64,000 nt of DNA, taken from assembly GCA_024137785.1 (NCBI GenBank), contig JAHRHZ010000289.1, forward strand, positions 20,706,512 to 20,770,511, in the 5' to 3' direction. The position numbers and the translations under genes were made by a program. The stretch comes from Ginglymostoma cirratum. Its lineage: Eukaryota. The notes below the pieces were generated by a model. It was not told where the DNA came from. It saw only the letters and a program-made list of their open reading frames with translations, and did not search any database. Within the stretch, counting starts at the first letter, position 1, and every line of letters begins with the position of its first letter. Positions 2,368-60,813 of this stretch are shown here, in pieces.

Positions 2368-4668
2368 AAGAAGTTGCTGGAAAGGTTCAGCAGGTCCGGC
2401 AGCGTCTGTGAAGAGAATGTCTGTGAGTTAACGTTTTGGGTCCGGTAACCCTTGCTCAGAACTGATGCTAGCTAGGAAAATGTTGGTTTATATGCAGAAG
2501 ATAGGGTGGTGGGAGGAATTAAGGAGTAAACAATAGGTCAGGATAGAGCTCAAAGAGAGAAAAGACAGACAAAGAAGTGGATAACAATCTGGCTGGATGA
2601 GTGAATAGCTGATAATGGAGACTGTTAGTGGCTAGCAGCAGGTAGTATGCAATGGCAGACCATGTGATAACAAGGCCTGGTGCATGGGATTGGGAGCTAG
2701 CACATGGTAGAGTTCAGGCCCTAAAATTATTGAACTCGGTATTAAGTCCGGTGGATTGCAGGATCCGCAAGTGGAAAATGAGATGTTGTTCTTCCAGCTT
2801 GTGCTGAGCTTCACTAGAGCACTACAGCAAGCCTGAGACAGAGATGTTGACCAGGGAACAGGGTGGTGTGTTACAGTGGCAGGCAACTGGAAGCTCAGGG
2901 TCATTTTTGTGAGCAAAACATAGGTGTTCTGCGAAATGGTCCCTTTCCATGTCCATCCCCCAGCAGGATGGTCTCAGGTCTCTCCGCTTCTTCCTGGAGC
3001 AAAGGCCCGAACTGTCCCCACCCACCACCACCCTCCTCTGCATGGCTGATCTTGTCCTCACCCTTAACAACTTCTCTTTTAACTCCTTCAGGTCAGGGGG
3101 GTGCCCATAGGTACTCCCATGGGCCCCAGTTATTCCTGTCTTTTCGAGGGATATGTGGAACATTCCTTGTTCCAGTCCTATTCCAGGCCCCACCCACAAC
3201 CCTTTCTGCAATATATCAATGATATCATCGGTGCTGCTTCCCTCTCTTGTCCAGAATTGGAAAAGTTCATCAATTTCACTTCTACCCCATCCTCACTTTC
3301 ACCTGGTCTATCTCTGACGCCTCCCTTCCCTTCCTCGACATCTGTTACCATTTCTGGGGATAGACTGACCACTAATATCCACTATAAACCCACTGACTCC
3401 CACAGCTACCTGGGCTATACATCCTCATACCACACTTTCTGTAAAGACTCCATTCCATTCTCTCAGTTCCTCTGTCTCTGTCACATATGTTTCAATAAGG
3501 CCAATTTCAACAAGACAGCCTCTGAAATGTCCACTTCCTTCCTCAACTGAGGATTCCCCAGCACCTTTGTCAACAGAGCTCTCACCTGGGTCTGACCAAT
3601 CTCCCTCCCTTCAACCCTCACCCCCTCTCTTCCCTCTCTCAACAGCGATAGGGGTCTCCTTCTCCTTAGCTGCCATCCCACCAGCATCCACATCTAGAAG
3701 ATCATCAGCTGCTATTTCCACCCCCTCCAGTGAGATGCCACCACCAGACACATATTCTCTCCCCTCCCTTGTCTGCCTTCAGCAGGGACTGTTCCCTTCA
3801 GGACACCTTAGTCCACTCTTCCTTCACTTCCAACACCACCCAACAGCCCCATGGTACCTTCCCCTGTAACTGCCAAAGGTATAGTACCTGCCCATTTACC
3901 TCCTCCCTCCTCAGTACCCAAGAGCCCAAACTTACCTTCCAAGTGAAGCACCAATTTACCTGCACTTCCCTCAATCTAGTCTACTGTGTTCTCTGCTGAC
4001 AATGTGGTCTCCTCTACGTTGGGGAAACAAAGCATAGACTGGGTTATTGCTTCGCACAACACCTATATTCTGCCTGCAAAAAAAGACACTGAGCTTCCAG
4101 TAGCTGCCACTTTAACACACCATCCTGTTCCCTGACAAACATCTCCGTCTTTGGCTTGCTGTAGTTCTCCAATGAAGCTCAGTGCAAGCTGAAAGAACAA
4201 CATTTCAACTTCTGCTTGGGGATACTACAGCCTTCTGGACTCAATATTGAGTTCAAAAACTTTAGGGTCCAAAATCTTTCATCTCCTAGACCCCAACCCC
4301 GCACACCAAGCTGTGTTATCATATAGTCTGCCATTACACACTACCTAATGTTAGTCACTAACAGTCACCATTAACAACTATTCATTCTCCTAGCCAGATC
4401 GTTATCAACTCTTTTGTCTGTCCAACTGTTCCTTTCTCTCTTTGGGCTCTATCCCCATCTATCATTTACTCCTCACACTCTCACACCACCTTATCTTTTG
4501 CATATAAACCGTCATTTCCTAGCTACCATCAGTTCTGAGGATGGGTCACCAACCCGAAATATTAACTCTGGTTTCTTTTCACAGATTTTGCCAGATCTGC
4601 TGAGCTTTTCCAGCAACTTTTGTTTTTGTTTCTGATTTACAGCATCCGCAGTTCTTTCGGTTTTTATT
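2368..4668 (+). mobile_element. Neptune-type Penelope-like element, 5'-truncated, with an inverted copy of its 3' end at 2368-2940
   Basis: RT motifs GVPIGTPMGPSYSCLF and QYINDII. Linker GTFPCNCQRYSTCPF. GIY-YIG LVYCVLC..GLLYVGETK. HHR motif at 4531-4567. 15-bp TSD tagtctagtggaacg (2353-2367) / tagtttagtggaacg (4669-4683). Contains frameshifts and stops. Confidence 0.92.
4531..4567 (+). ncRNA. Minimal hammerhead ribozyme motif in PLE 3' terminus
   Basis: AGTT-CTGAGGA-T-GGGT(CACCA)ACCC-GAAA-TATT-AACT. Stem I is AGTT/AACT; stem III is the palindrome ATAT. Confidence 0.65.
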
Positions 4669-4779
4669 TAGTTTAGTGGAACGTCTGGTATATGTAACCA
4701 AATTGATGATCATTAGCTGTTGAGGAACAAATCGAAATTTTCATATTAGTTTGCTGTAATCTGGTACAATAACAACAAC

Positions 4780-5260: not shown

Positions 5261-5411
5261 TTGTGAACACTGTTTCACTTGCTTGTATTGTTATCAAAAT
5301 GATAACATGTGCCTTCGTATAAACATTTTATCTGTTTGAGTTAAGTATTTATCTTTAGATAAAATGAAGGTTACGTTCATGCTCAGTATGTCAATATACT
5401 TTGATAGGATA

Positions 5412-5665
5412 TGTTTATGATATCATTGCTCTATCATAGCATGTGAATTGAGGATGTAAAGATTTTGTACTCTATCTTACTTTGAATCACTTAAAGCATA
5501 ACACGGCTGTTGGAAATCTACTGCTCTGTATAACTTTATACCTCAGCATTAGCTCAGATGTCGATGTTCCTCTGAGTGTAATATTTGTACACAATAGCTT
5601 GCTGTACTAAATGTCTGTTGGTTTCTTCAATACCGAGACATTCTTGCCTAGTTTTATATGTTACA
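5412..5665 (+). mobile_element. Putative 3' LTR of the Gypsy relic
   Basis: TGT...ACA-bounded segment directly downstream of the pol end; boundaries are approximate. Confidence 0.4.
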
Positions 5666-7803: not shown

Positions 7804-8014
7804 TAACGGAAATAGAAATTGCTGGCAAAACTCAAGCGGTCGGGCAGCATCTGTGGGAAGAATGCAGAGTTAACATTTTGAGTACAGTGACTTGTCATCA
7901 GAAGATCAACATTAATTCTGCTTTCTCTCTACAGATGCTGCCGGACCTGCTGAGTTTCTCCAGCAATATCTGTTTTTGCTTCAGATTTTCAGTGTCCACA
8001 GTTCTTTGATTAAT
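7804..8014. mobile_element. Palindromic PLE-terminus mini-element (decayed HHR on the minus arm)
   Basis: Inverted arms gaaattgctgg..gcagcatctgt / acagatgctgc..ccagcaatatc. The minus strand has CTGATGA..AAAATGTTAACT at 7868-7903. 11-bp TSD gttaccttata (7793-7803 / 8015-8025). Confidence 0.8.
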
Positions 8015-9124: not shown

Positions 9125-10205
9125 ACATTCACTTGGGATGTGACCATCACTGGCTGGCCATTTATTCTTCAGCCTTAGTTGCCCTTGAGAGGGTGTTGTG
9201 TGAACGCCTTCAACCGCTCAAGTCTATGTGCTGTAGGTAAACCCACAATGCTCTTAGTTAGAGAATTCCAGGATTTTGACCCTGCGACATTGAAGGAGCA
9301 GCAATGAATTTCCAAATCAGGATGGTGAGTGGTTTGGAGGGGAACTTGCAGGTGGTGGTGTTCCCATGTATCTGCTGCCCTTGTCCTTCTAGATGGAAGT
9401 AATCGTAGGTTTGGAAGGTGCTGTATAAGGTTCTCAGGCGAATTTTAGTAATGTATCGTATTGATAGTACAAACTGTTGCTACTGAGTATTACTGGTGGA
9501 GGGATTGGCGGTTTATAGTGCTAGTCTAGGGGGCTTATCCTTCTTGAGTGTTATTGTTGGAGCTGTACTCATCCAAGCAAGCAGGGAGTATTCCATCACA
9601 CTCCTGACTTGTGCCTTGTTAGACAGGTTTTAGGGAGTCTGGAAGTGCTTCTCCTCTTCCTAGCCTCTGGCCTCCTCTTATAACCATTGAGTTTATTTGG
9701 CAATTTCAGTAAGTTTCTGGTCAATTGTGACGACCAAAGCTATTGATAGTGGGGTGAAGGTAATGCCACTGAATGAATGAATAAGATTGTCTCTTACTGG
9801 AGATGGTCATTGCTTGTGCTGCGAATGTAACTTGCCACTTGTCAGCCCAAGCCTGGATATTGACAGGTCTCATTGCATTTGAACATAGATTGAGTCAGTA
9901 TCTGAGAAGTTGCAAATGGTATTGAACTCTTCGCAATCACCAAGAAACATCCCCACTTCTGATCTTATGATAGGGAAGGTCATTGATGAAGCAGTTGATG
10001 ATGGTTGGGCCTAGGCCACTACCCTGAAGAACTCCAGAGATGCCTCGGAACTAAGATGACTGACCTCCAACAACCATGACCATCTTCAGATGTGCCAGGT
10101 ATGACACCAACCAACGAAGAGTTTTTCCCCAGTTTTGCTAGGATTCCTCGATGCCACACATTCAGTCAAATGCGACCTTGATGCCAAGGGCTGTCACTCT
10201 CTCCT
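9125..10205 (-). mobile_element. CR1-group LINE, second family (3' part)
   Basis: Minus strand encodes KAQVRSVMEYSLLAWMSTAPT (~9555-9618). Homologous to 20560-21331, 32990-34680 and 61400-61720. Confidence 0.8.
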
Positions 10206-14782: not shown

Positions 14783-15990
14783 TCGTTCAACGCATCATCC
14801 TCCACCACTTCGGCTACCTGCAATCTGACCCCACTACCAAGGACATTTTTCCCACCCCACCCTTATCTGCCTCCCGGAGGGACCGCTCTCTCCGTGACTC
14901 CCTTGTCCGCTCCAAACTCCCCACCAGCCCCACCACACCCGGCACTTATCCCCGCAACCGCAGGAAGTGCTACACCTGCCCCTTCACCTCCCCCCTCACC
15001 CCCATCCCAGGCCCCAAGAAAACCTCCCACATTAAACAGATGTTCACCTGCACATCTGCTAATGTGATATGACAAGGTGTAGAGCTGGATGAACACAGCA
15101 GACCAAGCAGCATCAGAGGAGCAGGAAAGCTGACATTTCGGGCCTAGACCCTTCTTCATACTGTATCTGCTGTCCCCGACGTGGCTTCGTCTACATCAGG
15201 GAAACCAAGCGGAGGCTTGGAGACCACCTTGTGGCGCACCTACACTCGGTTCGTGACAAACGACTGCACCTCGCAGTCGCGAACCATTTCAACTCCCCCT
15301 CCCATTCCTTAGACAACATGTCTATCCTGGGCCTCCTCTAGTGCCACAATGATGCCACCTGAAGGTTGCAGGAACAGCACCTCATATTTCGCTTGGGAAC
15401 CCTGCAGCCCAATAGTATCAATGTGGACTTCACAAGCTTCAAAATCTCCCTGCCCCCGACCACATCCCAAAACCAGCCCAGCTCATCCCCACCTCCCTGA
15501 CCTGTCCATCTTTTCTCCCACCTATTCACTCCTCTCACCTCAACACCCACCCCCACCTCCTACCTATCAGCGTCATCCCTGCCTCCTTGTTCTGTCCATC
15601 TTCCCTTGACTGACCTAGCCCCATCCTAACTCCCCACCTACACTCACCTTTACTGGCTCCATCCCCACCTCCCTGACCTGTCCATCTTTTCTCCCACCTA
15701 TCCGCTCCTCCCACCTAAACCCCCACCCCATCTCCTACCTACCAGCCTCATCCCCACTTCCTTGACCTGTCTGTCTTACACTTGACTGACCAACCCCCAT
15801 CCCAACTCCCTATGTCCACTCACCTTTATTGGCTCCATCCCCACCTCCTTGACCTGTCCATCTCCTCTCCACCTATCTGCTCTTTTATCCATCTTCCATC
15901 CACCTCCCTCTCTCTATTCATTTCAGAATCCACTTGCCCTCACCCATTTTTGGAGAAGCATCCAGACCCAAAACATCAGCTTTCCTGCTC
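14783..15990 (+). mobile_element. Neptune-type PLE 3' fragment (linker, GIY-YIG, 3' UTR)
   Basis: QRIILHHFGYLQSDPTTKDIF..RNRRKCYTCP (ORF 14695..15072); same family as 51225-52342. Interrupted at 15071-15157. Decayed HHR at ~15945-15985. Confidence 0.9.
15071..15157 (-). mobile_element. 87-bp PLE-terminus/HHR mini-element inserted in a PLE endonuclease region
   Basis: Host gtgatat|actgtatc is split by gacaaggtgtagagc...cttcttc. The minus strand reads GAAGA-A-GGGTCTAGGCCC-GAAA-TGTC-AGC. Confidence 0.8.
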
Positions 15991-16025
15991 TGTACCTTGT
16001 TATTAGGATCCCCACAGTGTGGAAA

Positions 16026-17421: not shown

Positions 17422-17546
17422 AAATATGGATGCTGGATATCTGAAATAGAAATGGAAAATGGTGTAAGCATTCTTAACAGATCTGGCAGCATTCGTGGTG
17501 GGAGAACGAGAACTAACATTTCAGGTTGATGACCTTTCATCAGAGT
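17422..17546 (-). mobile_element. Single-arm PLE-terminus mini-element headed by an HHR
   Basis: The minus strand starts at the HHR and continues with the PLE terminus (..atgctgccagatctg..tttcagatatccagcatcc). Confidence 0.7.
17512..17546 (-). ncRNA. Minimal hammerhead ribozyme motif
   Basis: ACT-CTGATGA-A-AGGT(CATCA)ACCT-GAAA-TGTT-AGT. Stem I is ACT/AGT, stem II is AGGT/ACCT. Confidence 0.65.
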
Positions 17547-17596
17547 GAGTATTTCTAGTTTTACTTACATTTTGGCTAGGCAGGAATGTATGTACA

Positions 17597-17965: not shown

Positions 17966-18139
17966 GTGGCATGATGACATCTAAGAATGTGAATCAGCCT
18001 TTATTCAATATCATTTCTTCTTTTTATTCATTAAATCATGGGGTTCAGATGTTTTTCTCTTCAGTACTACAGAGATGCACAGATATCTATCCTGAAAATA
18101 TTGAACTCTCAAAACTCTCAAATCAGCATCTTTATCTTA

Positions 18140-18270
18140 CGAAAGGTCATGAGCTGAAGTTAACACTGTGTTTCTCTCTCCACAGACCGAGCCTGGCTTG
18201 CTAAGAACAATACATCCAGCATTTTCTGATTTTATTTCAGATTTCCATCATCCACAGATTTTAGCTTTTT
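18140..18270 (+). mobile_element. Decayed PLE-terminus mini-element
   Basis: gaaaggtcatgagctgaagttaacactgtgtttctctctccacaga...tttcagatttccatcatccacag matches the HHR-headed terminus; the core is broken. Confidence 0.55.
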
Positions 18271-19232: not shown

Positions 19233-20138
19233 TGACCTGGAATTTCCAATCGCCTGACAGTTGTTATTTCAGGGAATTGTATGTGGGGAGCTTTCACGGC
19301 AAACTCCAAACAAATGGCTAAGGAGATGGAAATTTCTGCTGGGAAATTTCCCATGCCTGGAATCCTCTGAAAGTCTCAGTATTAAATCGGAGAATTCGGA
19401 AGATTCCAATGAAATTAACTAAATAGTCACTTAGAAGAAGCTGAACTGTTAAATGCATATCCTACCTCATGTTTGACTGGTCAACTGACTTCATATTTAT
19501 AACACCTGACTGCAACTAGACCTCTGCCTGATCACTTACACTCTTCAGACCCTGACCTAAGCCCCCTTCCACAACTCTGCAGCTGACTCATCTCCCAACG
19601 CCTCTGGACTGCACCCTCTCTTGACCCTGCTCCATACGCAAACCCCTTCTCCCCCTCTGGATATATTCCCCCTTCCCCTGCCCTCAGATTGGATCTCCAC
19701 AGTACCACCAGACTCATCACACACCTCAGACCTGACTCTCACCCTCAATGCCCCCTGCCAGACCAGATCTTTAAGTCTACCCCAACCTACTCTAAGTACT
19801 GCATTACTTACCAAGCCCATTGCCACCTTGCACGCTGACATTCTAACCACTTGGTGCTTTATCCTTTCCAACCCTGACACCTTCTACACCTGGCACCCTA
19901 GCTCCTACCCAGCTGCCAGTTCTGAGGAAGGGTCACCACACCTGAAAAGTTAACTCTGATTTTTTTCTTCACCAGACCTGCTGAGCTTTTCCAGCAACTT
20001 TTGTTTTTGTGTCAGTTTGCTTATCTGGCTCTCCATAATGAAAATTCTGTCCTTGCCAGCACTTTCCCCAAAGGCAGTGGGCTGGACCAGGAATTTTCCC
20101 AAATTGCAGTATCTGAAATAAGGGTGAAAATCCAGACT
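19233..20138. mobile_element. Non-autonomous TIR (Harbinger-like) element with a C-rich interior
   Basis: Ends gacctggaatttcc / gaaaatccagact are roughly inverted. Start and interior are homologous to 34768-34810 plus 37115-38060. Confidence 0.45.
19917..20010 (+). mobile_element. HHR-headed PLE-terminus mini-element (no tail)
   Basis: AGTT-CTGAGGA-A-GGGT(CACCAC)ACCT-GAAA-AGTT-AACT (19918-19955), then ccagacctgctgagcttttccagcaacttttg. Confidence 0.75.
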
Positions 20139-20559: not shown

Positions 20560-21331
20560 TCATTTGCTGGATGTGGGCTTCTTTGTCAAGGCCATCTTTT
20601 ATTGCGCATTATTATTGCCCTGTAGAAGGGTGTGGTGAGGTTCCTTTTTTAACAGTTCAGTGCCTGGTGGATAGGTACATCCAGAGTGCAGATAGGAGGG
20701 GAATTCCAGGATGTTGAGCCAACAACAGTAAAGGAACAGAAATATATTTCCAAGTTAGGATCGCATGCGACTTGCAGAAGTTGCAAGTGGTGGTGCTCCC
20801 CTGTGTCTGATGCCCTTATCCTTCCACGTAGTAGCAGTCAGGGTTTGGAAGGTGCTGACAAAGGAGACTTAGTGAGTTGTTACAGTTCATCTTGGAGATA
20901 ATACACATTGCTGCCACTGTGCATCGGTGGTGGAGAGGGTGAATATTGAAGGCGGTGAATGGTGCAACAATCAACTGGGTTGCTGTGACCGGGATAGTGC
21001 TGAGCTTCCTGACTGTTGTTGGAGTTGTGCTCCTCTGGGCAAGTGAAGAATATTTCATCACACCCCTGACTTGTGCCATGTATGTGATGGATAGGCTTTG
21101 AAGAGTCCAGGAATAAGTTGCTTGCTGAAGAATTCTGAGCCATTGATCTGATTGTAGCCGTAATGTTTGTAGGCTGGTCCAGATCAGTTTCTGATCAATG
21201 GCAACACCTAAAATGTCAACAGGGATTCAACAATAATAATGTGATTGAATGTCAAGGAGTGATGGTTAAATTCTCTTTTGTTGGAAATTGTCATTGCATA
21301 ACATTTGTGCAGTGTGAATGTTACTTGCCAC
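20560..21331 (-). mobile_element. CR1-group LINE, second family: left part of an interrupted copy
   Basis: ORF 20816..21079 AQVRGVMKYSSLAQRSTTPTTVRKLSTI..NIHPLHHRCTVAAMC; the copy resumes at 22843. Confidence 0.8.
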
Positions 21332-23592: not shown

Positions 23593-23948
23593 ATCACAGC
23601 ATGGCTTTTAACATCAGCCCTTGGTGGCTATTAGATGAAGTATAATGGTAGGTGTAAGAGCAAAGCATAGGGTTGGGTAAATAGTTAGAATGAGTTGGCA
23701 CTAATTAGACACTGAGAGATAAAGAGCCATGGAAGTTGGGTACAGAGGCATAGGTTGGAATGGACGGTATGAGTGATGTGTGGGTGAAAGGTATGAAGTG
23801 GCAAGTGGCACGTGGGGAGTGCTTTGAGAGAAGAGGTATCAGGGTCATTGTTAGGATTTTGTTTTTCTCTTCTTATAAAGTGCCAGTGCATTAATGCAGG
23901 CATTCTGGCTAACCCGACTGTTACTCAACAGCCTCTGTACTCTGTCAC

Positions 23949-24080
23949 AACTGAAAGAACTGTGGACGCTGTAAATCAGCGACTAAAACAGAAATTGCTG
24001 GAAAAGCTCAGCAGGTCTGGCAGCATCTGTGGAAAGAAATCACAATTAACATTTTGGGTCGAGTGACTCTTCCTCAGAAA
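23949..24080 (-). mobile_element. HHR-headed PLE-terminus mini-element with full tail
   Basis: Minus strand CTGAGGA-A-GAGTCACTCGACCC-AAAA-TGTT-AATT, followed by the same terminus as 4531-4668. Confidence 0.8.
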
Positions 24081-31329: not shown

Positions 31330-31504
31330 CATCAGAGGAGCAGGAAGGCTGACATTTCGGGTCTAGACCCTTTTTCTGAAGAAGGGTTTAGACCCGAAAC
31401 GTCAGCTTTCCTGCTCCTCTGATGCTGCTTGGCCTGCTGTGTTCATCCAGCTCTACACCTTGTTATCTCAGATTCTCCAGCATCGGCAGTTCTTACTATC
31501 TCTA
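31330..31504. mobile_element. Palindromic PLE-terminus mini-element (left arm cut by the gap)
   Basis: catcagaggagcaggaaggctgacatttcgggtctagaccc is inverted relative to gggtttagacccgaaacgtcagctttcctgctcctctgatg; the right arm ends in the full tail. Confidence 0.85.
31374..31405 (+). ncRNA. Minimal hammerhead ribozyme motif
   Basis: CTGAAGA-A-GGGT(TTAG)ACCC-GAAA-C-GTC. Core is intact; stem I is only about 2 bp. Confidence 0.65.
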
Positions 31505-34971: not shown

Positions 34972-34974
34972 GAA

Positions 34975-37110
34975 CATGCAGTGCTCCACTCTCTCCGCAC
35001 CAATCCCAGTTTCTCTATCAAACCCACTGACAAAGTGGGGGTGGGGTGGTGTGGGTCGGTGGTAGTCTGGAGAACAGACCTCTATGTCGCAGAGGCCGAA
35101 TGCCAACTCTCCGACAGCATGTCTTACCTCCCGCTTGACCATAACCCCACCATGGCCCATCAAGCCACCGTCTCCCACACTGTCCATGATTTAATCGCTT
35201 CTGGTCTCCACCCCTTCACTGCCTTCAGCTCCCCCTGCCCCACACTGCCCTGTTCCACCTGCTCCCCAAGATCCACAAGCCCAACTACCCCAGCCTACCC
35301 ATTGTCTCCACATGCTCCTGTCCCACCAATCTCATCTCTTCCTCCCTCAACTCCATTCTCTCCCCCTTGGCCCAGGCACTCCCCAACTACATCTGGAGCA
35401 CCAACTATGCCCTCCACCTCTTTATGGAAACTTCTAGTTCCCAGGCCCTCAGTGCTTCATCTTTACTATGGATGTGCAATCCCTATACACATCCATACCC
35501 CGCAAGGAGACCCTGCAGGCCCTCAGCTTTTCCCTGACCAACAGACCTATCCAGTCCTCCCACCAATATCCTCTTCCACCTCGCCAAACTAGTCCTCATC
35601 CTCAATAACTTTTCCTTCAATTCTTCCCACTTTCTCCAAATCCAGGGGGTTGCCATGGGCCCTCGTATTGGCCCCAGCTACGCCTGCCTGTTTGTTGGTT
35701 CTGTTGAACAGTCGTTTTCAGTATGTACACAGGTACTGTTCCCCAACTCTTCCGCCATTACATCGATGACTGCATTGATGTTGCATTCTGCACCCAAGCT
35801 AAACTGGAGCAGTTCATCAACTTCGTTAACAACTTCCATCCCACCCTGCAATTCACTTGGACTATCTAAGACACCTCCTTTCCCTTTCTTGACCTCTCCA
35901 TTTCCATTTCTGGCAACAGTTTACACACTAACATTTACTATAAACTCATAGCTACCTAGACTACACCCCCTCTCACACTGTATCCTGCAAAACCTCCATC
36001 CTGTTCTCCCAATTCCTCTGTCTCCATCATATCTGCTCTGACAAGGAAACCTTCCGCTCCCAAGCATCCTGGATGTCTGCCTATTTCAAACAACGCTATT
36101 CACTCCCCTCCCCATCATCTAGACAGCCCTCTACTGCGCCTCCTCCATTCTCTACTCCACAGCTCTTAAACACCCCCCTTCCAAACATAATAAAGATTGT
36201 GTCCCCTTGTCCTCACTTTCCACCCCACCAGCCTCCTCATCCAAAGTATCATCATCAAACACTTCCACCAACTCCAATTAGACCCCACCAACCAGAGCAT
36301 TTTCCACTCCCACTCCTCTCTGTCTTCTGCAAGGACCATTCCCTTCGCCACTCCTTAGTTCACACCACACTCCCCACCAACCACTCCAACCCGCCCAGTA
36401 CCTTCCCATGTAACCGTAAAAGATGCAGCACCTGCCCACACACCACCTCCCTCACCTCCGTCCAGGGCCCAAACCAGTCCTTCCAGGTAAGACAGAGCTT
36501 CACCTGCATTTCCTCCAACCCAGTCTACTGCATCCGATTCTTCCGATGTGGCCTTCTCTACATCGGTGAGACCAAACGTAGATTCGGAGATTGTTTCACT
36601 GTGCGTCTTTTCCCGGCCCGTGATGGCCAACTTATCCTCCCAGTCACTGCCCATTTCACCTCCTGCCCCACTCCCCCTCCAACATGTCCGTACTCACTTC
36701 CTCCAGTTTCACAACGACTCAGAATGCAAATTTGAAGAACAAAACGTTATCTTCCACCTTGGCACCCTACAATTCAACACTGAGTTCTCCAATTTCAAAT
36801 AACCTGCCCACCCGCTCCCTGGATCCCTTTCCAGCCCCACCTCCTCCCTTCCATTCCACCTTCTGACCCTCCCATAGACCAAGCTGGTCAAACCTACGAC
36901 TATTGTCCACCTATCACCACCATTCCACTTTCACCCCTGCCTCCTGTTCTTTACCTGCAGATCCCCTACCCTCACATCCAGTCCTGAAGAATGGTAATAC
37001 CCGAAACATTGACTGTTCCTTTCCTCTAGATGCTGCCTGGGCTTGCTGTGTTCCTCCAGTGTCCTCTTTGTCTACCTTGGAATCCAGCATCCGCAGTTTT
37101 TTTGTCTCTA
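34975..37110 (+). mobile_element. Neptune-type PLE (RT, linker, GIY-YIG, terminus), decayed
   Basis: SIKPTDK, GVAMGPRIGPSYACLFVG, LFRHYIDDC, TFPCNRKRCSTCP, PVYCIRFFRCGLLYIGETKRRFGD; HHR at 36979-37015. Confidence 0.92.
36979..37015 (+). ncRNA. Hammerhead ribozyme motif (partly decayed)
   Basis: CAGTC-CTGAAGA-A-TGGT(AAT)ACCC-GAAA-CATT-GACTG. Perfect 5-bp stem I; one mismatch each in stems II and III. Confidence 0.6.
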
Positions 37111-46664: not shown

Positions 46665-46787
46665 ACACCTCCAACTTCAATTTTAAATTAAAAACTGAAA
46701 GAACTGTGGATGCTGTAAATCAGGAACAAAAAAAAAGTTGCTGGAAAAGCTCAGCAGGTCTGGCAGCATTTTTGAAGATAAAAACAG

Positions 46788-46825
46788 AGTTAATGTTTCG
46801 GGTCCGGTGACCCTTCCTCAGAACC
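46788..46825 (-). ncRNA. Hammerhead motif, left arm of the twin
   Basis: GGTT-CTGAGGA-A-GGGT(CACCGG)ACCC-GAAA-CATT-AACT (stem III CG changed to CA). Confidence 0.6.
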
Positions 46826-46862
46826 GTTCTGAGGAAGGGTCACCGGACCCGAACCATTAACT
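46826..46862 (+). ncRNA. Hammerhead motif, right arm of the twin (core variant GAAC)
   Basis: GTT-CTGAGGA-A-GGGT(CACCGG)ACCC-GAAC-CATT-AACT. Confidence 0.5.
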
Positions 46863-48197
46863 CTGTTTTTTCCTTCAAAGATACTGCCAGACCTGCTGAG
46901 CTTTTCCAGCAACTTTGTTTTTGTTCAATTTTAAATTGTCAGTGGTATTCACTCGAATCAACAAAGTGCCAACTTAAATGTGTAAATTGGATTCCAATGA
47001 TGCAGTATTGAAATCTTGGGTCCAGGTTTTCAAGGTAAAATCATGGGTTCATCCTTTATAGGGCTTCCTATTGAGGAAAGCAAATAGGTTTAGACAAGGC
47101 TGAATCAGTTGAGTTGCATTATATTTTTCATAATTTCCTGGATCCTCCCTTCTCTCAGTTTCTTGCTAAAGGTGATGAGAGGTTCTACTCCTTGTAGTTT
47201 TATGAGAATGGATATGATAATGAGGTGCTGATGAAAATTATCAGCATCAAATGTAACAGACTGTGAAGAAAGGATAGAATAGTCTGTACTAGTACACAAT
47301 GTTCTTATAGAGAGCACATGTTCATAAAAGAGTGTTCAAAAATGTACCAGAGTTAAATAACAGTCAATTATGGGTAATGGGAAGCCCTTACAGGCCACAA
47401 ATTACCAGAAGAGACAAGGATAGCCATCTCCCCAATGTGCATGTTGGAACCCTAAGCAATAAGCCTTGTATGAACACAAACCACTCTCCTCAAAGCCAAA
47501 TAAAGACTCGTGAGTCTGAGCCTTCCTGTTGGGCACAATCCCGACATTGACCTCAATTCCAGAATGGAACTCAGAAGTGGCCATGACTGGATATTGGTTG
47601 TGATCTCCCTGGAAGCTGCCAATTAAGAAGCTATCTCTTGAACTCCCATCTATTAAGGATGGCTGGCAAATCCAAGTAGGCAGGCAGCCCATTGGAATAG
47701 CTGGCAGAAGTCTCTGGCTGGTAACGCAACCAGGAAAGATGGGCATTGCTGGGGAAAACAAGAGATTACAAAGCTCCCTCAAAAGGAGGTGCTCTCTGCA
47801 GCCTTGTGAAAATTATGTTATATAATGGATGGCCATAGCCACACCTGGGTGAGTGTGTGCAGGTGTAGGTGGCTCGCTGTGCTGCCATCAAGAGGTTACC
47901 TTCAGAGCTCCATCTCAATGAGAAGCCCATCCACCATTGAGGAAGTACCCAGCTGACCCTCAGTGAGCCAAAAGGTAAACTAAATTGGTTAACAATGTGG
48001 CAAAGTCGCTTGGACGTGTCAAGGTACTGCATGGCTGATTGACACTTTTCTTCTGGTCCTGCCTCCTTATCTTGCCCATGAGACCAGGAAAATTAGTTCT
48101 TTGGATTTCGAAGGTCAATGTATCTGTTTCCATTCAATCCTTTGCTATATACTTTAGGATAATCCTGCTACAGCTATTGGGATTTGATGGAAACCTC

Positions 48198-49460: not shown

Positions 49461-49511
49461 TACAATTTAATCTGGATTTTTGGATTTTGAACCAACAGCT
49501 AATGAGTTTGG

Positions 49512-49619
49512 CTGATTCAGTTCTGAGGAAAGGTCACTGTACCTGAAACGTTAATTCTGTTTTCTCCTCCACAGATGCTGCCAGACCTGCTGAGGTTTTC
49601 CAGCAACTTTGTTTTAGTT
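49512..49619 (+). mobile_element. 108-bp HHR-headed mini-element with TSD
   Basis: Exact 14-bp TSD gctaatgagtttgg (49498-49511 / 49620-49633); contains only the HHR and the PLE terminus. Confidence 0.9.
49519..49556 (+). ncRNA. Minimal hammerhead ribozyme motif, intact
   Basis: AGTT-CTGAGGA-A-AGGT(CACTGT)ACCT-GAAA-C-GTT-AATT. All core bases and all three stems are present. Confidence 0.75.
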
Positions 49620-49654
49620 GCTAATGAGTTTGGACTGTGTTAATGATGTACATA

Positions 49655-51224: not shown

Positions 51225-51227
51225 ACA

Positions 51228-51980
51228 GTGGTCGAGAACGCCCTCGACCGTGTCTCCCGCATTTCCCGGAACACATCCCTCACGCCCCGTCCCCGCAACA
51301 ATAACCAAAAAAGAATCCCCCTCGTCCTCACATACCACCCCACCAACCTCCGGATCCAACGCATCATCCTCCGACACTTCCGCCATCTACAGTCAGACCC
51401 CACCACCAAAGACATCTTTCCCTCCCCACCCTTATCTGCCTTCCGGAGGGACCACTCCCTCCGCGACTCCCTTGTCCGCGCCACACTCCCCTCCAGCCCC
51501 ACCACACCCGGCACTTTTCCTTGTAACCGCAGGAAGTGCTACACCTGCCCCCACACCTCCTCCCTCACCCCAATCCCAGGCCCCAAGAAGACATTCCACA
51601 TCAGGCAGAGGTTCACCTGCACATCTGCCAATGTGGTATACTGCATCCGCTGTACCCGTTGTGGCTTCCTCTACATCGGGGAAACCAAGCGGAGGCTTGG
51701 GGACCGCTTTGCAGAACACCTGCGCTCAGTTCGCAACAAACAACTGCACCTCCCAGTCGCGAACCATTTCAACTCCCCCTCCCATTCCTCAGATGACATG
51801 TCCATCCTTGGCCTCCTACAATGCCACAGTGATGCCACCCGAAGGCTGCAGGAACAGCAAATCATATTCAGCCTGGGAACCCTGCAGCCCAATGGCATCA
51901 ATGTGGATTTCACAAGTTTCAAAATCTCCCCTCCCCCAACCGCATCCCAAAACCAGCCCAGCTCATCTCCACCTCCCTAA
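51228..51980 (+). CDS. PLE polyprotein C-terminus: Cys linker plus GIY-YIG endonuclease (partial; the 5' part lies in the gap)
   Basis: RIPLVLTYHP..GTFPCNRRKCYTCP..VVYCIRCTRCGFLYIGETKRRLGDRFAEH..PVANHF..H..LGTLQPNGIN; 250 codons without a stop. Confidence 0.9.
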   Translation: MVENALDRVSRISRNTSLTPRPRNNNQKRIPLVLTYHPTNLRIQRIILRHFRHLQSDPTTKDIFPSPPLSAFRRDHSLRDSLVRATLPSSPTTPGTFPCNRRKCYTCPHTSSLTPIPGPKKTFHIRQRFTCTSANVVYCIRCTRCGFLYIGETKRRLGDRFAEHLRSVRNKQLHLPVANHFNSPSHSSDDMSILGLLQCHSDATRRLQEQQIIFSLGTLQPNGINVDFTSFKISPPPTASQNQPSSSPPP

Positions 51981-52267: not shown

Positions 52268-53214
52268 TTTCCTGCTCCTATGATGCTGCTTGACCTGCTG
52301 TGTTCATCCAGCCCCATGCTTGTTATCTCGGATTCTCCAGCTTCTGCAGTACCTTTTATCTCATGAATGAGACTTTTTTTTCATATTTAGTGTTTATGAC
52401 TGAGGGTTCTGTCAGAATATCGGATATTTTTCTTGTCTCCATATGGCACCTAAGGTCTGCTCAGAGGCTACATGATGACTGAATATAGAATTGGTATTTG
52501 GATATGAGATGCATGGAGATAGCATTGGGCTTATGGGGAGATTGGGAGGTAGATGGGCCATGAGGGCAAGAAAGTCTAGCAGCCTCTTTCACAACTTGGC
52601 TCAAATCTCAAAGAATCATGCTAAATCTTCTAACTAGCTGTCTTCACCATTTGCAGAAAGGATAAAGATTCACATATTGATTTATGCAGTACTTTTGAGT
52701 CTGTTCTGATTCTATGTATTTCTCGTGTTAAATGGGCCTATTAGGAGGAAATAAATTTGCTGATTTTTCTTTTAAAATCTGGTGTCAATAACAGCAAATG
52801 CTGTTTAGAAATTAGGTTTGCCAATTAATTTAAAGTTGTTATATAAAATGGTATGTGTAGATAGATCTTTCATTCTGATATACAGCCTTTTCAATGAGAG
52901 TGAAGTTTTATTAATGAGATTGTTGCAGATAGAGCAGATAACACGGGCTTAAGGCATTTTGGCTACTAAGCTGAATAATGTAAGAATGTGAAAGACAGGA
53001 AGCAAAGGAGAATTTTAATTAGGATTGCTGAAATGTCATAGACTATCAATTCTCCAAACATTTTCTCAGAATTTCATTATGTCCCTGTCTTACCAATGTA
53101 TAAATGTATGAAATTATCAGGAGCATCCAAAGTAATTTATTTTCCCTCTGTTTATAATTTTATTTATTATCCTGGCTGCATAATGATCCAGTTGCTACGT
53201 GAGATGACTTGCTT

Positions 53215-54540: not shown

Positions 54541-54579
54541 AGGATCTACTGAAAATTAACAACTTAAGAATGCTATTGT

Positions 54580-54890: not shown

Positions 54891-56358
54891 AACTCTTTTC
54901 GTTATCTCATGTCTGGAGGACCTTTTGCTGTCATGAATCTTCATGACTAGAACCTATAATAAAGCTTAAGTGTGTAAAAGGAAGTTTGGAAACTATTCCA
55001 TTCATTTGAGAAGAGTGAGATGAATGGGTATTTGTACATTATGTGCAGTCAGACATAAACTAAAAACTTTTTGATAATATTACATGACTTCGACTCAAGC
55101 TCCTACCTAATACTATTCTTTGACCAGAAAATGTAGTACAGATCATTTCTGTCAAGGAATTTAGCCACATTATCATGAAAATATGGTCAAAATCCTGACC
55201 CCGTGATTCTATGATTCCAGAAGCATATAATCAAATTTTGATAACTGTTTCTCGATATTTCAACTGGAAATTTCAAAATTCCTTTATCAACACATTTATT
55301 TTGACTTGTTACCAGTTAAGGTTATTTCAGATAAACTGAGAAATTTTACAGCGAGCTGCTACATGACAGTGGATATAAGTAGATGGAGTTAGCTACAAGA
55401 TTCAAGTAGTGGAGAAGCTCATTAGCTGAAGTTTTCCTTGAGAAAATATTTATAATCTGAGGTTATGCAGCTGCTTTGTTTTCGACCATTACTGCATTGT
55501 AGCTCCTAGCACTTGGCATTCATCACAAATAATGGTTCTATTCCATGAGATCAAGCTGAAATGTTATGGAACCATCTCAAAACTGCTGAATATTTGCTTT
55601 ACATTTTTTTTAATCTTGTAAAATAACCTGGAAAGAGAGATTGTGCTGGCACCTAAACTCTGGGTTATAAGATGGTCCACACTCTTAGTCGAAAACATTA
55701 TTATTTTGGTTCTTTAAGAGGCTATCATTCAAAAATGAATTGATTTTTCATTTTTAAACAATATATTTCTCTCTACCTTCCTGTTTCCTCGGATCAGACA
55801 GCATTTCAGTGAGAAGGCAAAGAAGTAATCTGCTTCCAGGCTGGTGCATTTTTGAATCTATTGTAGAGAGCAAACTAGACTTCTCATGTTGATTCTGCAC
55901 AAGATTTTCTCTTCATTTTTATGGATGACCTCCTGTTTTCCTCATAGATCTCTTAACAGCAGCATATCTGAGAAAAGTAACTCATAGTGTGTGGGTCTAC
56001 ACCTAGGAACTGAATTCTAAACCCTTAGTGGGACTATGCTTTGGAGCTTGAGCTCCATTACCTAATTTTAGCATTTCCTTTTCATAGGCGTGGAAAATCT
56101 CTTAGATTCAATTATTTTGGTTAATGTTGTGGATTTTGCATCCAGCCGGATACCTTTACCTAATGTCACAATACTTATGTTATCCCTCACAACATGAAAA
56201 AACTAGGTATGGATAACTTGGTATTTAAAAATGCAAGAGACCTTATTGCAGCTGTCTACTACATATAAATATTACCGCCACAGGCAATTCAGTATCTAGG
56301 CCAAGGCGTAGAGCTGGAAGAACACAGCCGGCCAAACAGCATCTGAGGAGCAGGAAAG

Positions 56359-56390
56359 ATGACGTTTCAGGCCTAAACCCTTCTTCAGAA
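56359..56390 (-). ncRNA. Hammerhead motif, left arm of the twin
   Basis: CTGAAGA-A-GGGT(TTAG)GCCT-GAAA-C-GTC; core intact, stem I weak. Confidence 0.6.
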
Positions 56391-56392
56391 AA

Positions 56393-56424
56393 TTCTGAAG
56401 AAGGGTCTAGGCCCGAAACGTCAG
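56393..56424 (+). ncRNA. Hammerhead motif, right arm of the twin
   Basis: TT-CTGAAGA-A-GGGT(CTAG)GCCC-GAAA-C-GTC-AG; core intact. Confidence 0.65.
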
Positions 56425-57618
56425 CCTTCCTGCTCCTCTGATGCTGCTTGGCCTGTTGTGTTCATCTAGCTCTACACCTTGTTACATCAGATTGTCCAGC
56501 ACCTGCAGTTCCTACTATCTCAGTATCTAGGCCATTTGATTATAAAGAGTAACATGCTTTCAATAAAGTGTCATGATTCAAGTAATCCAAGTTAAGATGC
56601 GATTTTTATACCCTTAGGTCACATGCCATGATACAGTGATGATGTCATGAGCATGTCTCTTAAAGGCTTACTCTGCTACAATTTCATTTAAGGTATATTA
56701 ATATACTGACTGTGAGACATAGCACAAAACTTGATATTGCCAGTCCCTTTACTTTCCTTTCTGTTTGTTACAAAAGTCAATGGGTTAAATCATACTTTTT
56801 TTTGGCTAAATGTAAGTTGTGTTGAGTTTTTTGGAAGGATTCACAAAGTGAGGCCCAGTGATACATTTTTCTGTAGTTTACCAAGTCCATCTTATTAACT
56901 AGGGCATCCCTTGCATTTGATTCTAGCTCCATCTCACCAAATCTTCTGCTCCTCTCTGCTGTCTGACCCAAAACATCAATCTCCATTTTTTATTTCATTC
57001 TCCTCCCATGTTCTCCTGTCAATCAGGCAAATGTGAAAGAAGAATTGTTTTACCCCTGGATGATCATGCATTCTAAGACATCACCCCAATACAGCTCCAC
57101 ATCAAGGCACCTGGTGCCCTTCTTAAAGTGGTTAGAGCTTTATAAACCTTTTAAGTATGGGTAAGAAGATATAGTTGAGATGCCAGTATGAATTTGCTGT
57201 AACTCAGTACTAACATTGTGACTTCATTAAGTCACCCACAAATCATGAGGAGGTCATTTACTCCAGTGGATTCTCACCTTTACTGTAATTCAAAACATTG
57301 CAGAGGTGTAGGTGACAACTTGCCAGAAGCCTGTACAGATTTTATCACTCAATTTTAAACTACACACAGTGGTGGTCATTGCTGGCTCCCAAACCAACCA
57401 CAAATCACTAGCAGAATAGATGGGAGGAATCTACCACAGCATTGCTTGAAGAGAGATCCTGCTATAATTAAGGAAGTCTTGAAGTTGATCTGGCACTCAT
57501 ATTTCCTTCAGTCTCTCGAGCGTGTTCAATCTTAAAAGCTTCTTCAAGTTGATCACACTGCCGCTTTGTGTGATGATGAAATCTGCTGCTTAATTTAATC
57601 CCCAATGTTTCTTTTCAG

Positions 57619-57669: not shown

Positions 57670-58296
57670 GTAAGCAGCACAATTCATACTTACAGCTTTT
57701 CTATTCATGAGGCTCCTTACTATCACTGGATAGATGATGCATTTGCCTTGCCTACTTACTGCTGGATCTGAACTCCGGAACAAAAGGAATTGTATTAACT
57801 CCCAAATTGAATGTGTATACAGTCAATATGAGTTAGATTTTTTTACTCTGTTTTTTGTAAACTAAAAGTTGGAGTTTTAAACTCCCACCCACTTTTAGAT
57901 TGAATAGTAAAACCTAATACTTCACTGATCCTCTTCAGAGCTTTGTGAACCTTATTTTCTATATTGGGCTTGAATTTTCAGATGTTTACATTGACCTGGG
58001 CTATTCCACCAGCTCGGAGGTGGAACTGGATGCAGTAAGGATGGATAAATAGTGAGGGCAGTCACTACAGGACAGTTCTCTGACACAACCTCACCCCCAG
58101 TAAACTGTCCCCAGCTTGGCTAACTGCTCCATGAAAGGGACCAGTCAATGAATATAAGAGCCATTTTTACAATGCTTCCAGAATTTTGCCAACATTGGAG
58201 TGACCTCCAAAGTAACGGCAGAGGCTGACAGTCCAATTGAGGCAACGATAGATCAACAGTGGCCTTGGAATTAGAAACACATTGCCCCAGATATGA

Positions 58297-60813
58297 CGAG
58301 ATAGCAAAAACTGCAGATGTTGGAGTCAGGGATTACACAGTGTGGAGCTGGAGGAACACAGCAGGCCAGGCAGCATCAGAGGAGCAGGAAAGTTGACGTT
58401 TTGGTTCGGGACCCTTCTTCAAAAATGGGGAGGGGGAAGGAAGCCGGGATATAAATAGGGAGAGGAGGAGTGGGGCTGGGAAAGGTAGGTGGGATTGTGA
58501 TAAGTGAGTGCAGGTAGGGAGTGGTGGGGATTGGTCAGTGGGATATGGTGGGGTGAATAAGTGGGAGAGAAGTTGGACAGGTTGTGTCAGGCCAAGGAGG
58601 CAGGAGGGAGGTTGGGTGGGGCTGGTGAAAGATAGGTGGGGTGGTGATAAATTAGAAGAATGTAGTAGGGGTTGGTCAGTGGGAAGAGTAGGGCGGATAG
58701 CTGCGAGAAGACGGACAGGTTGTGTCAAGTCAAGGAGGCAGGGATGAGAGGAAGGGTTGGACATGGGATGAGGCCGGGAGTGGGGAGATTTTAAAACTGG
58801 TGAATTCTATGTTCAGACCATTGGGCTGTAGGCTCCCAAGGCAGAATATGAGGTGTTGCTCCTCCAGTTTGCATATGGTGTCATTGTGGCACTGGAGGAG
58901 GCCCAGGATGGACATGTCACCCAGTGAGTGGGAGGACGAATTAAAATGGTTGTCGATCAGAAGGTGTTGTCATTTGTTACATACAGAGCTCAGATGCTCT
59001 ACAAAACAGTCCCTGAGTCTACGCTTGGTCTCACCAATGTAGAGGAGGCCATATTGGAAGCAACAGATACAGTAGACCAGGTTGGAGGATGTACAGGTAA
59101 ACCCCTGTTGGATTTGAAATGTTTGCTTTGGGCCTTGGATGGAGGTGAAGTGGGGGAGGTGCAGGGGCAGGTGTAGCACTTCCTGTGTTTGCAGGGATAG
59201 GTGCTGGGGGTGGTGGGGTTAGTGGGGAGTGTGGAGCTGACGAGGGAGTCACGGAGACCCGTTCCTACAAAAGGCAAATAAGGGTGGGGAGGGAAATATC
59301 TCTTTGGTTGTGGGGTCAGATCATAGGTGGTGGAAGTGGCAGAGAATGATGTGTGGATGCGGAGGTTGGTGGTGTGGTATGTGAAGCCCAGGGGGATTCT
59401 GTCTTTATTTTTGTTGGGGGAGGGGGTTTGTGGCTAGAAGTGTAGGAAATGCAAGAGATGTGGTTAAGGACATTTTTGATCACCAGAGGAGTGTTGCGGT
59501 CCTTGAAATAGGAGGACACCTGGGATGTCTGGCATTGGAATGCTCCATTCTTGGGAGCAGATGTGACAGAGGCAGAGGAATTGAGAGTGGGAGATCACAT
59601 TTTTGTAGGAGGATGGGTGAGAGGACGTGTAGTCCAGGTAGCTAGAAGAGTCGGTGGGTTTGAAATAGCTGTTGGTGTTGAGGCAGAGAGGTCCAGGAAG
59701 GGAGGGAGGTATCGGAAATGGTCTAGGTGAATTTGAGGTTGGGGTGAAAGGTGTTAGTAAAGTTGATGAACTGTTCAAGCTCCACTTTCAGAGCATGAAG
59801 CAGCTCTGAAAGTCATCAATGTAGCGGAGGAAGAGGTTGGAAATAGTGCCAGTATAACAGCTGAAAAGGGACTGTTCCATGTATCCTACAAAGAGGTGGG
59901 CATAACTTGGACCCATGCAGGTGACCATGGCCACCCCCTTAGTCTGCAGTAAGTGGGAGGAGTTAAAGGGGAAGTTGTTCAGGCTAAGGACAAGTTCTGT
60001 AAAGCAGATGAGGGTGTCGGTGGCAGGGGATTGGTTGGGCTTGTGGGAGAGGAAGAAGCGGAGGTCTTTTAGGCCATATGCATGGGGAATACAAGTGTAT
60101 AGGGACTGGATGTCCATAGTGAAGATGAGGTATTGGGAGCCAGGGAATTGGAAGTCTCAGAGGAGGTGGAGGGTGTGGGTGCTGTCCTGCCTGTTGGTGG
60201 AGAGTTCCTGGACCGGGGAAAAAGACAGAGTACCTGGACCGGGTGGAGAAGACAGAAGGATACCATAGCAAACTGGAGGAGCAACACCTCATATTCCACC
60301 TCGGGAGCCTACAACCTGATGGCCTTAACATAGAACTCATCAGTTTTAAAATTCCCCCACCCGACTCCTGGCCTCATCCTAAGACCAAACCTCCCTCTCA
60401 TCCCCACCTCTTTGACCTGACACAACCTGTCCATCTTCTCTCCCACCTATCTACCCTACCCTTCCCGCAAACCAATCCCCTCTATCCCCTACATGCATCC
60501 AACCTATCACCACCCACCTATCTTTCACCAGTCCTACCCATCCTCCCTCCCGCCTCCTTAACCCGACACAACCTGTTCATCTTCTCTCCCACCTGTCCGC
60601 CCCACCTGTCCCGCTGACCAATCCCCACCACACCAAACCGTATTCACCTATCACCATCCCTCCTACCTTCCCCAGCCCCACCCCTCCTCTCTATTTGTCT
60701 CTGAGCTCCCTTCTCCATCCCCATTTCTGAAGAAGGGTCCTGACCGAAATGACAACTTTCCTGCTCCTCTGATGCTGTCTGGCCTGGCTGTGTTCCTCCA
60801 GATCCACACTGTG
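58297..60813 (-). mobile_element. Neptune-type PLE, 5'-truncated, with an inverted 3'-end copy (~60258-60813)
   Basis: MDIQSLYTCIP..KGVAMVTCMGPSYAHLFVG..LFLRYIDDF; LVYCICCFQYGLLYIGETKRRL. 15-bp TSD ttgccccagatatga (58282-58296) / ttgccccaaatatga (60814-60828). Decayed HHRs at ~58391-58426 (minus) and 60723-60757 (plus). Confidence 0.93.

What the first reader, a model, noticed from the sequence alone, without database searches (positions are those of the whole stretch)
2368..60813. About 20 minimal hammerhead motifs in 64 kb, with stem covariation across families
Seen: stem I varies as AGTT/AACT (4531, 19918), AGTT/AATT (49519), ACT/AGT (17512), CAGTC/GACTG (36979) and ATTT/AAGT (52232). Stem II varies as GGGT/ACCC, AGGT/ACCT and GGGT/GCCC with different loops. 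The CTGANGA and GAAA core stays fixed except for CpG decay, and one extra base (usually A) follows CUGANGA. Stem III is a loop-less palindrome (ACGT; ATAT at 4559-4562). Known: such minimal type I HHRs are reported to cleave as dimers. Inference: the structure was under selection in the active elements.
Basis: partly seen in the sequence, partly recalled or inferred. Interest (0 to 1): 0.75.

Follow-up and report, generated by a model that had tools for sequence, protein, structure and literature searches.

The report
Penelope retrotransposon hammerheads at transcript start
These are ordinary scattered copies of a known self-cutting RNA motif carried by Penelope-like jumping genes, but many copies begin sharply at the motif's first letters, about 30 bases behind a TATA-like box, so the ribozyme likely forms the very start of the element's RNA.

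Summary
Real, but known. The window holds 21 minimal type I hammerhead remnants from about 14 insertions; 10 keep an exact core, and only 2 also keep both stems and the ACGU palindrome. All belong to Neptune-type Penelope-like retrotransposons (RT plus GIY-YIG, inverted ends, optional tail, target duplications), as described by Cervera and de la Pena 2014. The density is normal for this 4.36-Gb genome (111,547 exact-pattern copies, control 0).

Added here, not found in my literature searches: copy 5' ends pile up 2-7 nt before CUGANGA, in solo copies, in palindromes (7,612) and in copies that reach the ORF start (16 against 2.4 expected). A TATA-like box lies about 30 nt upstream in families A, B, D and E. 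The ribozyme likely starts at the transcription start, and solo copies are likely short cDNAs of uncleaved RNA. Cleavage-site starts are at most weakly enriched; RNA-seq was uninformative. The scan noted hammerhead-Penelope pairs before, in at least 29 other genomes.

The parts
2368..4673 (.). One family A insertion: inverted 5'-truncated copy (hammerhead C3 at 2459, - strand, decayed core), then a direct RT/EN fragment and pLTR (hammerhead C3 at 4535, + strand), with the tail on the right
   Evidence: target duplication TAGTGGAACG at 2358 and 4674
4503..4508 (+). TATAAA box, 28 nt before the A at 4531 that opens stem I (predicted initiator, TCAGTT)
   Evidence: -32 from C3; the same box at -33 on the - strand for the 2459 copy; genome-wide
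4531..4567 (+). Family A minimal hammerhead, core exact, stem III decayed to ATAT
7804..8014 (.). Asymmetric head-to-head pair of old hammerhead+tail arms (C3 7901, - strand; right arm truncated inside the motif)
   Evidence: target duplication GTTACCTTATA at 7793 and 8015
15048..15991 (.). Family B2 insertion: inverted hammerhead+tail arm (C3 15159, - strand), EN fragment, pLTR with 89/176-bp repeats, decayed hammerhead (C3 15950, + strand)
17456..17547 (-). Family D hammerhead+tail (C3 17543; A-U at 10.1-11.1)
18133..18227 (+). Heavily decayed D-like hammerhead+tail
19918..20018 (+). Family A hammerhead+tail (C3 19922), core exact
23945..24080 (-). Solo family A hammerhead+tail (C3 24077), decayed
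31331..31502 (.). Family B2 head-to-head pair (intact + arm with C3 at 31376)
34972..37110 (+). Family C element: broken RT/EN, pLTR, hammerhead (C3 36984, stem I CAGTC/GACTG) and tail
46690..46923 (.). Family A palindrome, axis in the 5' strand of stem I (C3 46821 on -, 46829 on +); long tail on the left, short end on the right
   Evidence: target duplication TTCAATTTTAAATT at 46676 and 46924
49512..49619 (+). Solo family A insertion of about 108 nt (C3 49523); GUU triplet; A10.1 and U11.1 are decay
   Evidence: target duplication GCTAATGAGTTTGG at 49498 and 49620
51225..51980 (+). C-terminal part of the young family B1 ORF: cysteine linker and GIY-YIG endonuclease
   Evidence: Pfam PF01541 E 8.9e-6; 150 of 150 scored genome matches listed at 100% identity
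52232..52267 (+). Youngest hammerhead (B1): AUUU-CUGAUGA-A-GGGU UUAG GCCC-GAAA CG UC-AAGU; predicted cleavage after 52263; best test candidate
52268..52362 (+). Tail with the two family 3' ends (near 52329 and 52362)
56304..56519 (.). Family B2 palindrome (C3 56388 on -, 56395 on +), optional tail on the right
   Evidence: target duplication TCAGTATCTAGGCCA at 56289 and 56520
58297..60813 (.). Family B3 insertion: long - strand copy (RT/EN, TATTTA at -35, C3 58422) head-to-head with a short + strand copy (C3 60727)
   Evidence: target duplication beginning TTGCCCCA at 58282 and 60814

Best explanation
The motifs are fresh and decayed copies of the minimal type I hammerhead carried in the pseudo-LTR of Neptune-type Penelope-like retrotransposons; the motif likely begins at the element's transcription start, and most copies are likely short cDNAs copied from the internal tail priming sites back to that start. 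Shown: the carrier, the copy number, the two fixed 3' ends, the sharp 5' boundary 2-7 nt before CUGANGA, the TATA-like box about 30 nt upstream, target duplications, and family-level pairing. Inferred: RNA polymerase II starts at the A that opens stem I, so this strand would serve as initiator and helix at once. The RT primes inside the RNA at the tail (shown in vitro for the anole element); priming on the 5' copy of the tail would give 100-135-nt solo copies, and fold-back of the cDNA end would give the head-to-head palindromes. The template would be mostly uncleaved RNA, cleavage being slow, dimer- or protein-dependent, and reserved for a minority route such as unit-length circles that rebuild promoter-bearing tandems. 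The identity as PLE hammerheads is near certain (0.97); the stated confidence covers the whole model.
For: Carrier: RVT_1 plus C-terminal GIY-YIG in 3 of 3 long ORFs tested, CX4CXXC linker and YIDD, hammerhead 184-331 nt behind ORF homology. 5' ends in the unselected sample (138 evaluable of 148): 69 at -9..+1 from C3 (27 at -3), 25 extend 50 nt or more, 35 lie at +3..+20, 1 at +28. The same boundary holds in families A and B, whose upstream sequences differ: -1..-3 kept in 88-97%, background by -6. Copies reaching the ORF start (84 unmasked of 91, out of 2,114 in the genome): 16 end at -7..-2 against 2.35 expected, P 4e-9. L293 is a long copy that starts at -4, with its ATG at +166. TATA-like box at -33 in A (4 of 4 extended copies; 4,515 pattern hits, control 0) and -35 in B (46 of 54); similar boxes by eye in D and E, weak in C. 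7,612 palindromic junctions within 16 nt, with varied junction letters, also seen in raw reads at -7..+1. Target duplications of 9 nt or more in 11 of 37 solos against 0.3 on shuffled pairing. Two 3' ends 33-34 nt apart match the two RT start sites in PMC11167929, where uncleaved RNA was the dominant template.
Against: No direct evidence of a start site: poly(A) RNA-seq was unstranded, mostly host read-through (87% and 94% of reads run on into unlike sequence) and showed no pile-up of molecule ends. No cap-derived G excess at 5' junctions (8 of 38 with G before the A). The initiator match is short and family E departs from it. The five boxes may share one ancestor. 13-14 of 91 long copies run seamlessly into the upstream pLTR, which a linear RNA starting at -4 cannot give without a circle, a template switch or read-through. 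The anole element places its ORF start inside the hammerhead, so the layout differs between clades. The D. virilis Penelope promoter is internal and TATA-less.
Confidence: 0.62

Rival explanations
1. The 5' boundary is not a transcription start. It is where the RT stalls or folds back after unwinding the hammerhead, or where the GIY-YIG endonuclease cuts the element's own DNA; transcription starts further upstream.
For: 35 of 138 5' ends also fall inside the 5' half of the motif. The anole protein cuts an ATT motif in its own pLTR, and family B has ATTT here. Seamless tandems show that RNA or DNA reaching upstream is copied.
Against: Family A has AGTT, not ATT, yet the same boundary. A TATA-like box sits at about -30 in several families. 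Truncation falls off just upstream: 3 ends in -8..-39 against 16 in -7..-2.
Confidence: 0.25
2. Cleavage is the main route: the two hammerheads of one transcript pair through ACGU, both cut, the unit-length RNA is circularised, and RT on the circle makes the insertions (the model proposed in PMC4209133).
For: Core and palindrome are fixed across families with four double changes. Seamless pLTR-hammerhead-ORF tandems exist. Three long copies start exactly at the cleavage site: L344, L356 and L314.
Against: Cleavage-site starts are 2 of 84 against 0.39 expected (P 0.06), 4 against 1.56 in +27..+30 (P 0.07), and 1 of 138 in the unselected sample. A circle has no end at -4, yet that is the dominant end. 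Predicted homodimers pair through stems I and II, not through ACGU (energy models do not score the core). Published cleavage is low and dispensable for insertion in vitro.
Confidence: 0.2
3. The fold is kept mainly as a binding site for the element's protein or as promoter and splice signal, and catalysis has lapsed in some families.
For: B2 and B3 amplified with a U x C mismatch in a 4-bp stem I. Families A, C, D, E have GUU, recalled as a poor triplet. A branch-point-like YTRAC, a pyrimidine tract and CAG follow the cleavage site in A, C and D.
Against: Catalytic core letters are invariant in all family representatives apart from CpG decay. The youngest family restores stem I with a U-G pair (85 of 90). 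The anole homologue cleaves with protein help. Reads gave no sign of acceptor use (inconclusive).
Confidence: 0.12
4. This window is a special cluster of host-selected ribozymes.
For: The motif region is abundant in poly(A) RNA (36,057 reads laid of 12.9 million).
Against: The density equals the genome background. 11 of 21 copies have broken cores or triplets. The reads are read-through on both strands.
Confidence: 0.02

Closest known systems
Minimal type I hammerheads (min-HHR) of metazoan Penelope-like elements (Cervera and de la Pena 2014, PMC4209133; parts 1-2 of 4 read, one supplement table searched)
   Same: Extra base between 9 and 10.1, G10.1-C11.1, palindromic 15.2-16.2 without loop, short helix I, many covarying families per genome, mostly single motifs, pairs on opposite strands, location in pLTRs; reported from fish Neptune and Poseidon elements, coelacanth (about 4,000) and Xenopus (about 9,000).
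   Different: At least 111,547 exact-pattern copies here (a different descriptor, so not strictly comparable). One family has A10.1-U11.1. The parts read do not place the motif at the transcription start or describe the 5' boundary.
PAc (Poseidon of Anolis carolinensis; Frangieh et al. 2024, PMC11167929; parts 1-2 of 4 read)
   Same: Two internal RT start sites that define the optional tail; hammerhead upstream of them; uncleaved RNA as template.
   Different: The PAc ORF starts in stem II; here the main ATG is 166 nt after C3 and the protein has a Neptune-type cysteine linker.
Neptune-clade EN+ PLEs (Craig et al. 2021, PMC8557442, passages) and Adineta vaga Penelope (Arkhipova et al. 2013, PMC3846280, passages)
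   Same: RT, cysteine linker, C-terminal GIY-YIG; inverted 5'-truncated copy; 30-40-bp tail; palindromes at inverted junctions; a putative TATA box plus initiator in the pLTR of Pen2a.
   Different: The A. vaga passages do not link TATA/initiator to a ribozyme, and read the palindromes as self-priming on an antisense template.
Non-LTR retrozymes (PMC7229834, passages; bioRxiv 10.64898/2026.07.22.740005, parts 1 and 3 plus passages)
   Same: Type I hammerheads in short non-coding PLE-derived units; found in the one chondrichthyan sampled.
   Different: Retrozymes are tandem arrays, often with canonical hammerheads; the window's copies are dispersed solos, palindromes and truncated elements.

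Membership tests
PLE minimal type I hammerhead | CUGANGA and GAAA core with UH triplet | tested here: met
   Exact in 10 of 21 window copies; invariant in 9 family representatives apart from CpG decay
PLE minimal type I hammerhead | Unpaired base between positions 9 and 10.1 | tested here: met
   Present in all 6 strict hits; mostly A
PLE minimal type I hammerhead | G10.1-C11.1 pair | tested here: met
   Commonest pair in A, B1, B2, B3, E; G-U by CpG decay in C; A-U in family D, 24 of 30
PLE minimal type I hammerhead | Palindromic 15.2-16.2 with no loop 3 | tested here: met
   ACGU in young copies; TG, CA and TA variants are CpG decay
PLE minimal type I hammerhead | Helix I of 4-5 bp with compensatory changes | tested here: inconclusive
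   Met in A, B1, C, D, E; consensus mismatch in B2 and B3
PLE minimal type I hammerhead | Location in the pLTR of a PLE | tested here: met
PLE minimal type I hammerhead | Self-cleavage as dimer or with protein help | not testable with these tools
   No assay; genomic cleavage-site starts only weakly enriched; RNA-seq uninformative
Rfam hammerhead families | Match to an Rfam hammerhead model | tested here: not met
   0 hits at the gathering score, none among 11 hits at E<=10
EN+ Penelope-like element, Neptune type | Single ORF with RT and C-terminal GIY-YIG | tested here: met
   Pfam PF00078 and PF01541 in 3 of 3 ORFs; Atlas neighbours share this make-up
EN+ Penelope-like element, Neptune type | CX2-5CxxC linker between RT and EN | tested here: met
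   CNRRKCYTC in P0001; feature named in PMC8557442
EN+ Penelope-like element, Neptune type | Inverted 5'-truncated copy, optional 30-40-bp tail, target duplication | tested here: met
EN+ Penelope-like element, Neptune type | RT phylogeny inside Neptune rather than Nematis | not tested
   No reference PLE sequences were on hand; the clade name rests on the linker
Non-LTR retrozyme | Tandem array with a hammerhead in each unit | tested here: not met
   None of the 8 tandem-repeat rows covers a hammerhead; only occasional two-unit tandems in other loci
TATA/initiator RNA polymerase II promoter | TATA-like box about 30 nt before a pyrimidine-A initiator | tested here: met
   consensus and spacing are recalled textbook values
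TATA/initiator RNA polymerase II promoter | Capped transcripts starting at that A | tested here: inconclusive
   No pile-up of ends in fragmented, unstranded RNA-seq

The most novel reading that the evidence does not exclude
In vertebrate Neptune elements the hammerhead is the first 36 nt of the transcript: its stem I strand doubles as the polymerase II initiator behind a TATA box. The roughly one million solo and palindromic hammerheads of this genome are strong-stop-like cDNAs of uncleaved RNA, while dimer cleavage between the 5' and 3' ribozymes of one transcript is a rare switch that decaps the mRNA and makes the circle that regenerates promoter-bearing tandems.
Probability: 0.4. Interest if true: 0.6.

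Novelty: new member of a known kind. Interest (0 to 1): 0.36.

Why it matters
The motif class, its covariation and its dimer cleavage are published, so the finding as written adds little. What the hammerhead does for Penelope-like elements is still called unclear (PMC8557442). This genome has a very young family and over 100,000 near-intact copies, which record where reverse transcription starts and stops. If the ribozyme sits at +1, that explains why most PLE hammerheads are solo copies, shows that uncleaved RNA is the usual template in vivo, and gives exact constructs for promoter and cleavage tests.

Tried and rejected
Rfam scans gave no hammerhead hit; the 11 weak hits were other families, mostly on the palindromes. 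A relaxed descriptor with one core mismatch was not above chance. A locally special cluster was rejected on background density. One amplified palindromic MITE was rejected because junction letters differ from copy to copy. Deletion remnants were rejected as the main source of solos because of target duplications. A cleavage-site 5' hot spot like that of R2 elements (recalled) was not supported beyond a weak excess. RNA reads could not place a start, a cut or a splice acceptor; run X23 gave only 10 reads. Cofolding does not recover the ACGU dimer, and the 49519-49556 monomer is predicted to misfold (-4.5 kcal/mol), so it is a poor assay candidate. The upstream-extension step failed; the counts come from the corrected. 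No tRNA gene was found, and 7 other window ORFs had no Pfam hit. Lunse et al. (PMC5785218) and Arkhipova et al. 2017 (PMC5850863) are not held; I saw only the reference and a review passage for the first and the reference for the second, and either could already mention the 5' boundary or cartilaginous fish. One supplement of PMC4209133 was not searchable, and the bioRxiv supplements were closed.


Full report
Observation. The quoted letters are at the quoted places. An iterated profile of hammerhead plus downstream sequence finds 24 hits; I kept 21 (20 at E<1e-7 and the weak remnant at 15946) and dropped 3 weak ones. The reversed window gives none. A strict descriptor finds 6, against 0 in 10 shuffles. 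Ten of the 21 keep an exact core; only 49523 and 52236 keep core, ACGU palindrome and both 4-bp stems. Rfam does not detect the motif.

What carries them. The window lies in a 4.36-Gb animal genome; from recalled repeat content I guess a cartilaginous fish, which no call tested. Behind 51225-51980 is a GIY-YIG domain. [quoted passage not shown] The hammerhead lies 184-331 nt behind ORF homology and is followed by a tail with two fixed 3' ends 33-34 nt apart. Six window insertions sit between target duplications of 8-15 nt, several as inverted plus direct copies, so the 21 motifs come from about 14 events. The family of 52236 is very young: all 150 scored matches are listed at 100% protein identity.

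How common. One exact pattern occurs 111,547 times, control 0. In 535,300 readable bases of 1,064,000 fetched there are 146 hits, one per 3.7 kb, and the window's 20 are typical. If that density holds throughout, the genome has about a million remnants (extrapolation).

Covariation. I defined families by loop and tail letters and counted pairs. Loci for C, D and E were pulled with patterns that fixed at most one side of the pair under test. Four double changes stand: stem I pair 1 C-G in C (6 of 7), stem I pair 2 C-G in E (8 of 9), 10.1-11.1 A-U in D (24 of 30; 47 of 63 rows by eye), and 10.2-11.2 A-U in E (8 of 9). On nine representatives 93% of cells pair and no shuffle of 500 reaches the score, but each change may be a single event.

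What is known. Cervera and de la Pena 2014 (PMC4209133; parts 1-2 of 4 read) describe these motifs in PLE pLTRs with the extra base, the G10.1-C11.1 pair, the palindrome, covarying families, mostly single copies, and low cleavage of dimers. A review passage cites Lunse et al. for dimer cleavage (the paper is not held). Frangieh et al. 2024 (parts 1-2 of 4) show internal RT starts that define the tail, protein-assisted cleavage, and insertion from uncleaved RNA. Inverted copies, tails and junction palindromes are described in PMC8557442 and PMC3846280 (passages); the latter also notes a putative TATA box and initiator in one rotifer pLTR. The finding as written is therefore a new member of a known kind.

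What the copies add. In the unselected sample, 138 of 148 hits could be scored: 69 end at -9..+1 from C3 (27 at -3), 35 at +3..+20, 25 extend 50 nt or more into the pLTR, 4 end at -26..-11, 4 in the tail and 1 at +28. The boundary is the same in families A and B, which differ upstream. Among copies that reach the ORF start (90 loci of 2,114 matches, giving 91 copies, 84 unmasked), 16 end at -7..-2 against 2.35 expected, and 13 run on 40 nt or more into the pLTR. L293 starts at -4 and runs through the tail to an ATG at +166. There are 7,612 head-to-head junctions within 16 nt, with varied letters, and raw reads show them at -7..+1. Solos carry target duplications (11 of 37 against 0.3). A TATA-like box starts at -33 in A and -35 in B, that is 29-31 nt before the A that opens stem I; D and E show similar boxes and C a weak one (few copies, by eye). 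The A lies in pyrimidine-A initiator context (consensus recalled).

Mechanism. Most likely, polymerase II starts at that A, so the hammerhead is the first 36 nt of the RNA (inferred). The RT primes at the tail (shown for the anole element, inferred here). Priming at the 5' tail gives solos that end at the RNA's 5' end; fold-back gives palindromes; priming at the 3' tail gives long, truncated copies. Since the dominant end is -4 and not +28, the usual template is uncleaved. Cleavage-site starts exist (L314, L344, L356) but are only weakly in excess (P 0.06-0.07). Seamless tandems need a circle, a template switch or read-through, which leaves a minority role for cleavage. The main rival is an RT stall or endonuclease cut at the same place. 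RNA-seq could not decide: reads were unstranded read-through with no pile-up of ends.

Novelty. Searches returned no paper that, in the listings and passages I read, places a PLE hammerhead at the transcription start or treats these motifs in cartilaginous fish beyond one species in a 2026 preprint. Two key papers were not readable, so this is a bounded negative. The scan's index lists 401 notes with hammerhead and Penelope in at least 29 genomes and none matching this sequence or the promoter wording.

Verdict. Observation confirmed; interpretation partly supported; known class. Interest 0.36, resting on the 5'-end and promoter pattern.

Noticed in passing
L293:2562-2681 (-): A 39-codon upstream ORF starts at the conserved GATGCTG of the tail region and stops 2 nt before the main ATG, which suggests stop-start translational coupling.
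   Followed up: no
window 49549-49576 and equivalents in families A, C, D: YTRAC, a pyrimidine tract and CAG/TAG followed by ATG come straight after the cleavage site and look like a branch point and splice acceptor; families B and E lack the AG. Reads were inconclusive.
   Followed up: partly
L091:1843-2083, L115:9470-9716, L034:6605-6831: Head-to-tail pairs of hammerheads about 150-165 nt apart, joined where the leader just before the ORF start jumps back to the stem I start; natural in-cis dimer candidates.
   Followed up: no
5' junctions of family B copies: The T run after the opening A varies from 3 to 12, while the template has 3; slippage by polymerase or RT is possible.
   Followed up: partly
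window 31384-31395 (+): The B2 stem II hairpin variant GGGTCTAGACCC is a perfect palindrome, so stem II could also pair between molecules; this window copy differs by one base.
   Followed up: no
window 15478-15882: 89/176-bp tandem repeats inside the pLTR of an older family B copy.
   Followed up: no
window 22062-22457 (+); 20816-21226 (-); 9234-9385, 20672-20820, 33039-33107, 61506-61657: Other repeat fragments that resemble CR1/L2-type LINE ends by recall; no Pfam hit for the two ORFs.
   Followed up: no
L325:1403: 1,794 reads share one loose end, pointing to a single well-expressed host transcript that carries a tail fragment.
   Followed up: no
G000: Three matches show open frames of 1,049 codons, likely the full ORF length of the young family; the N-terminal part holds an Ala/Thr/Pro-rich repeat and no Pfam domain.
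   Followed up: partly
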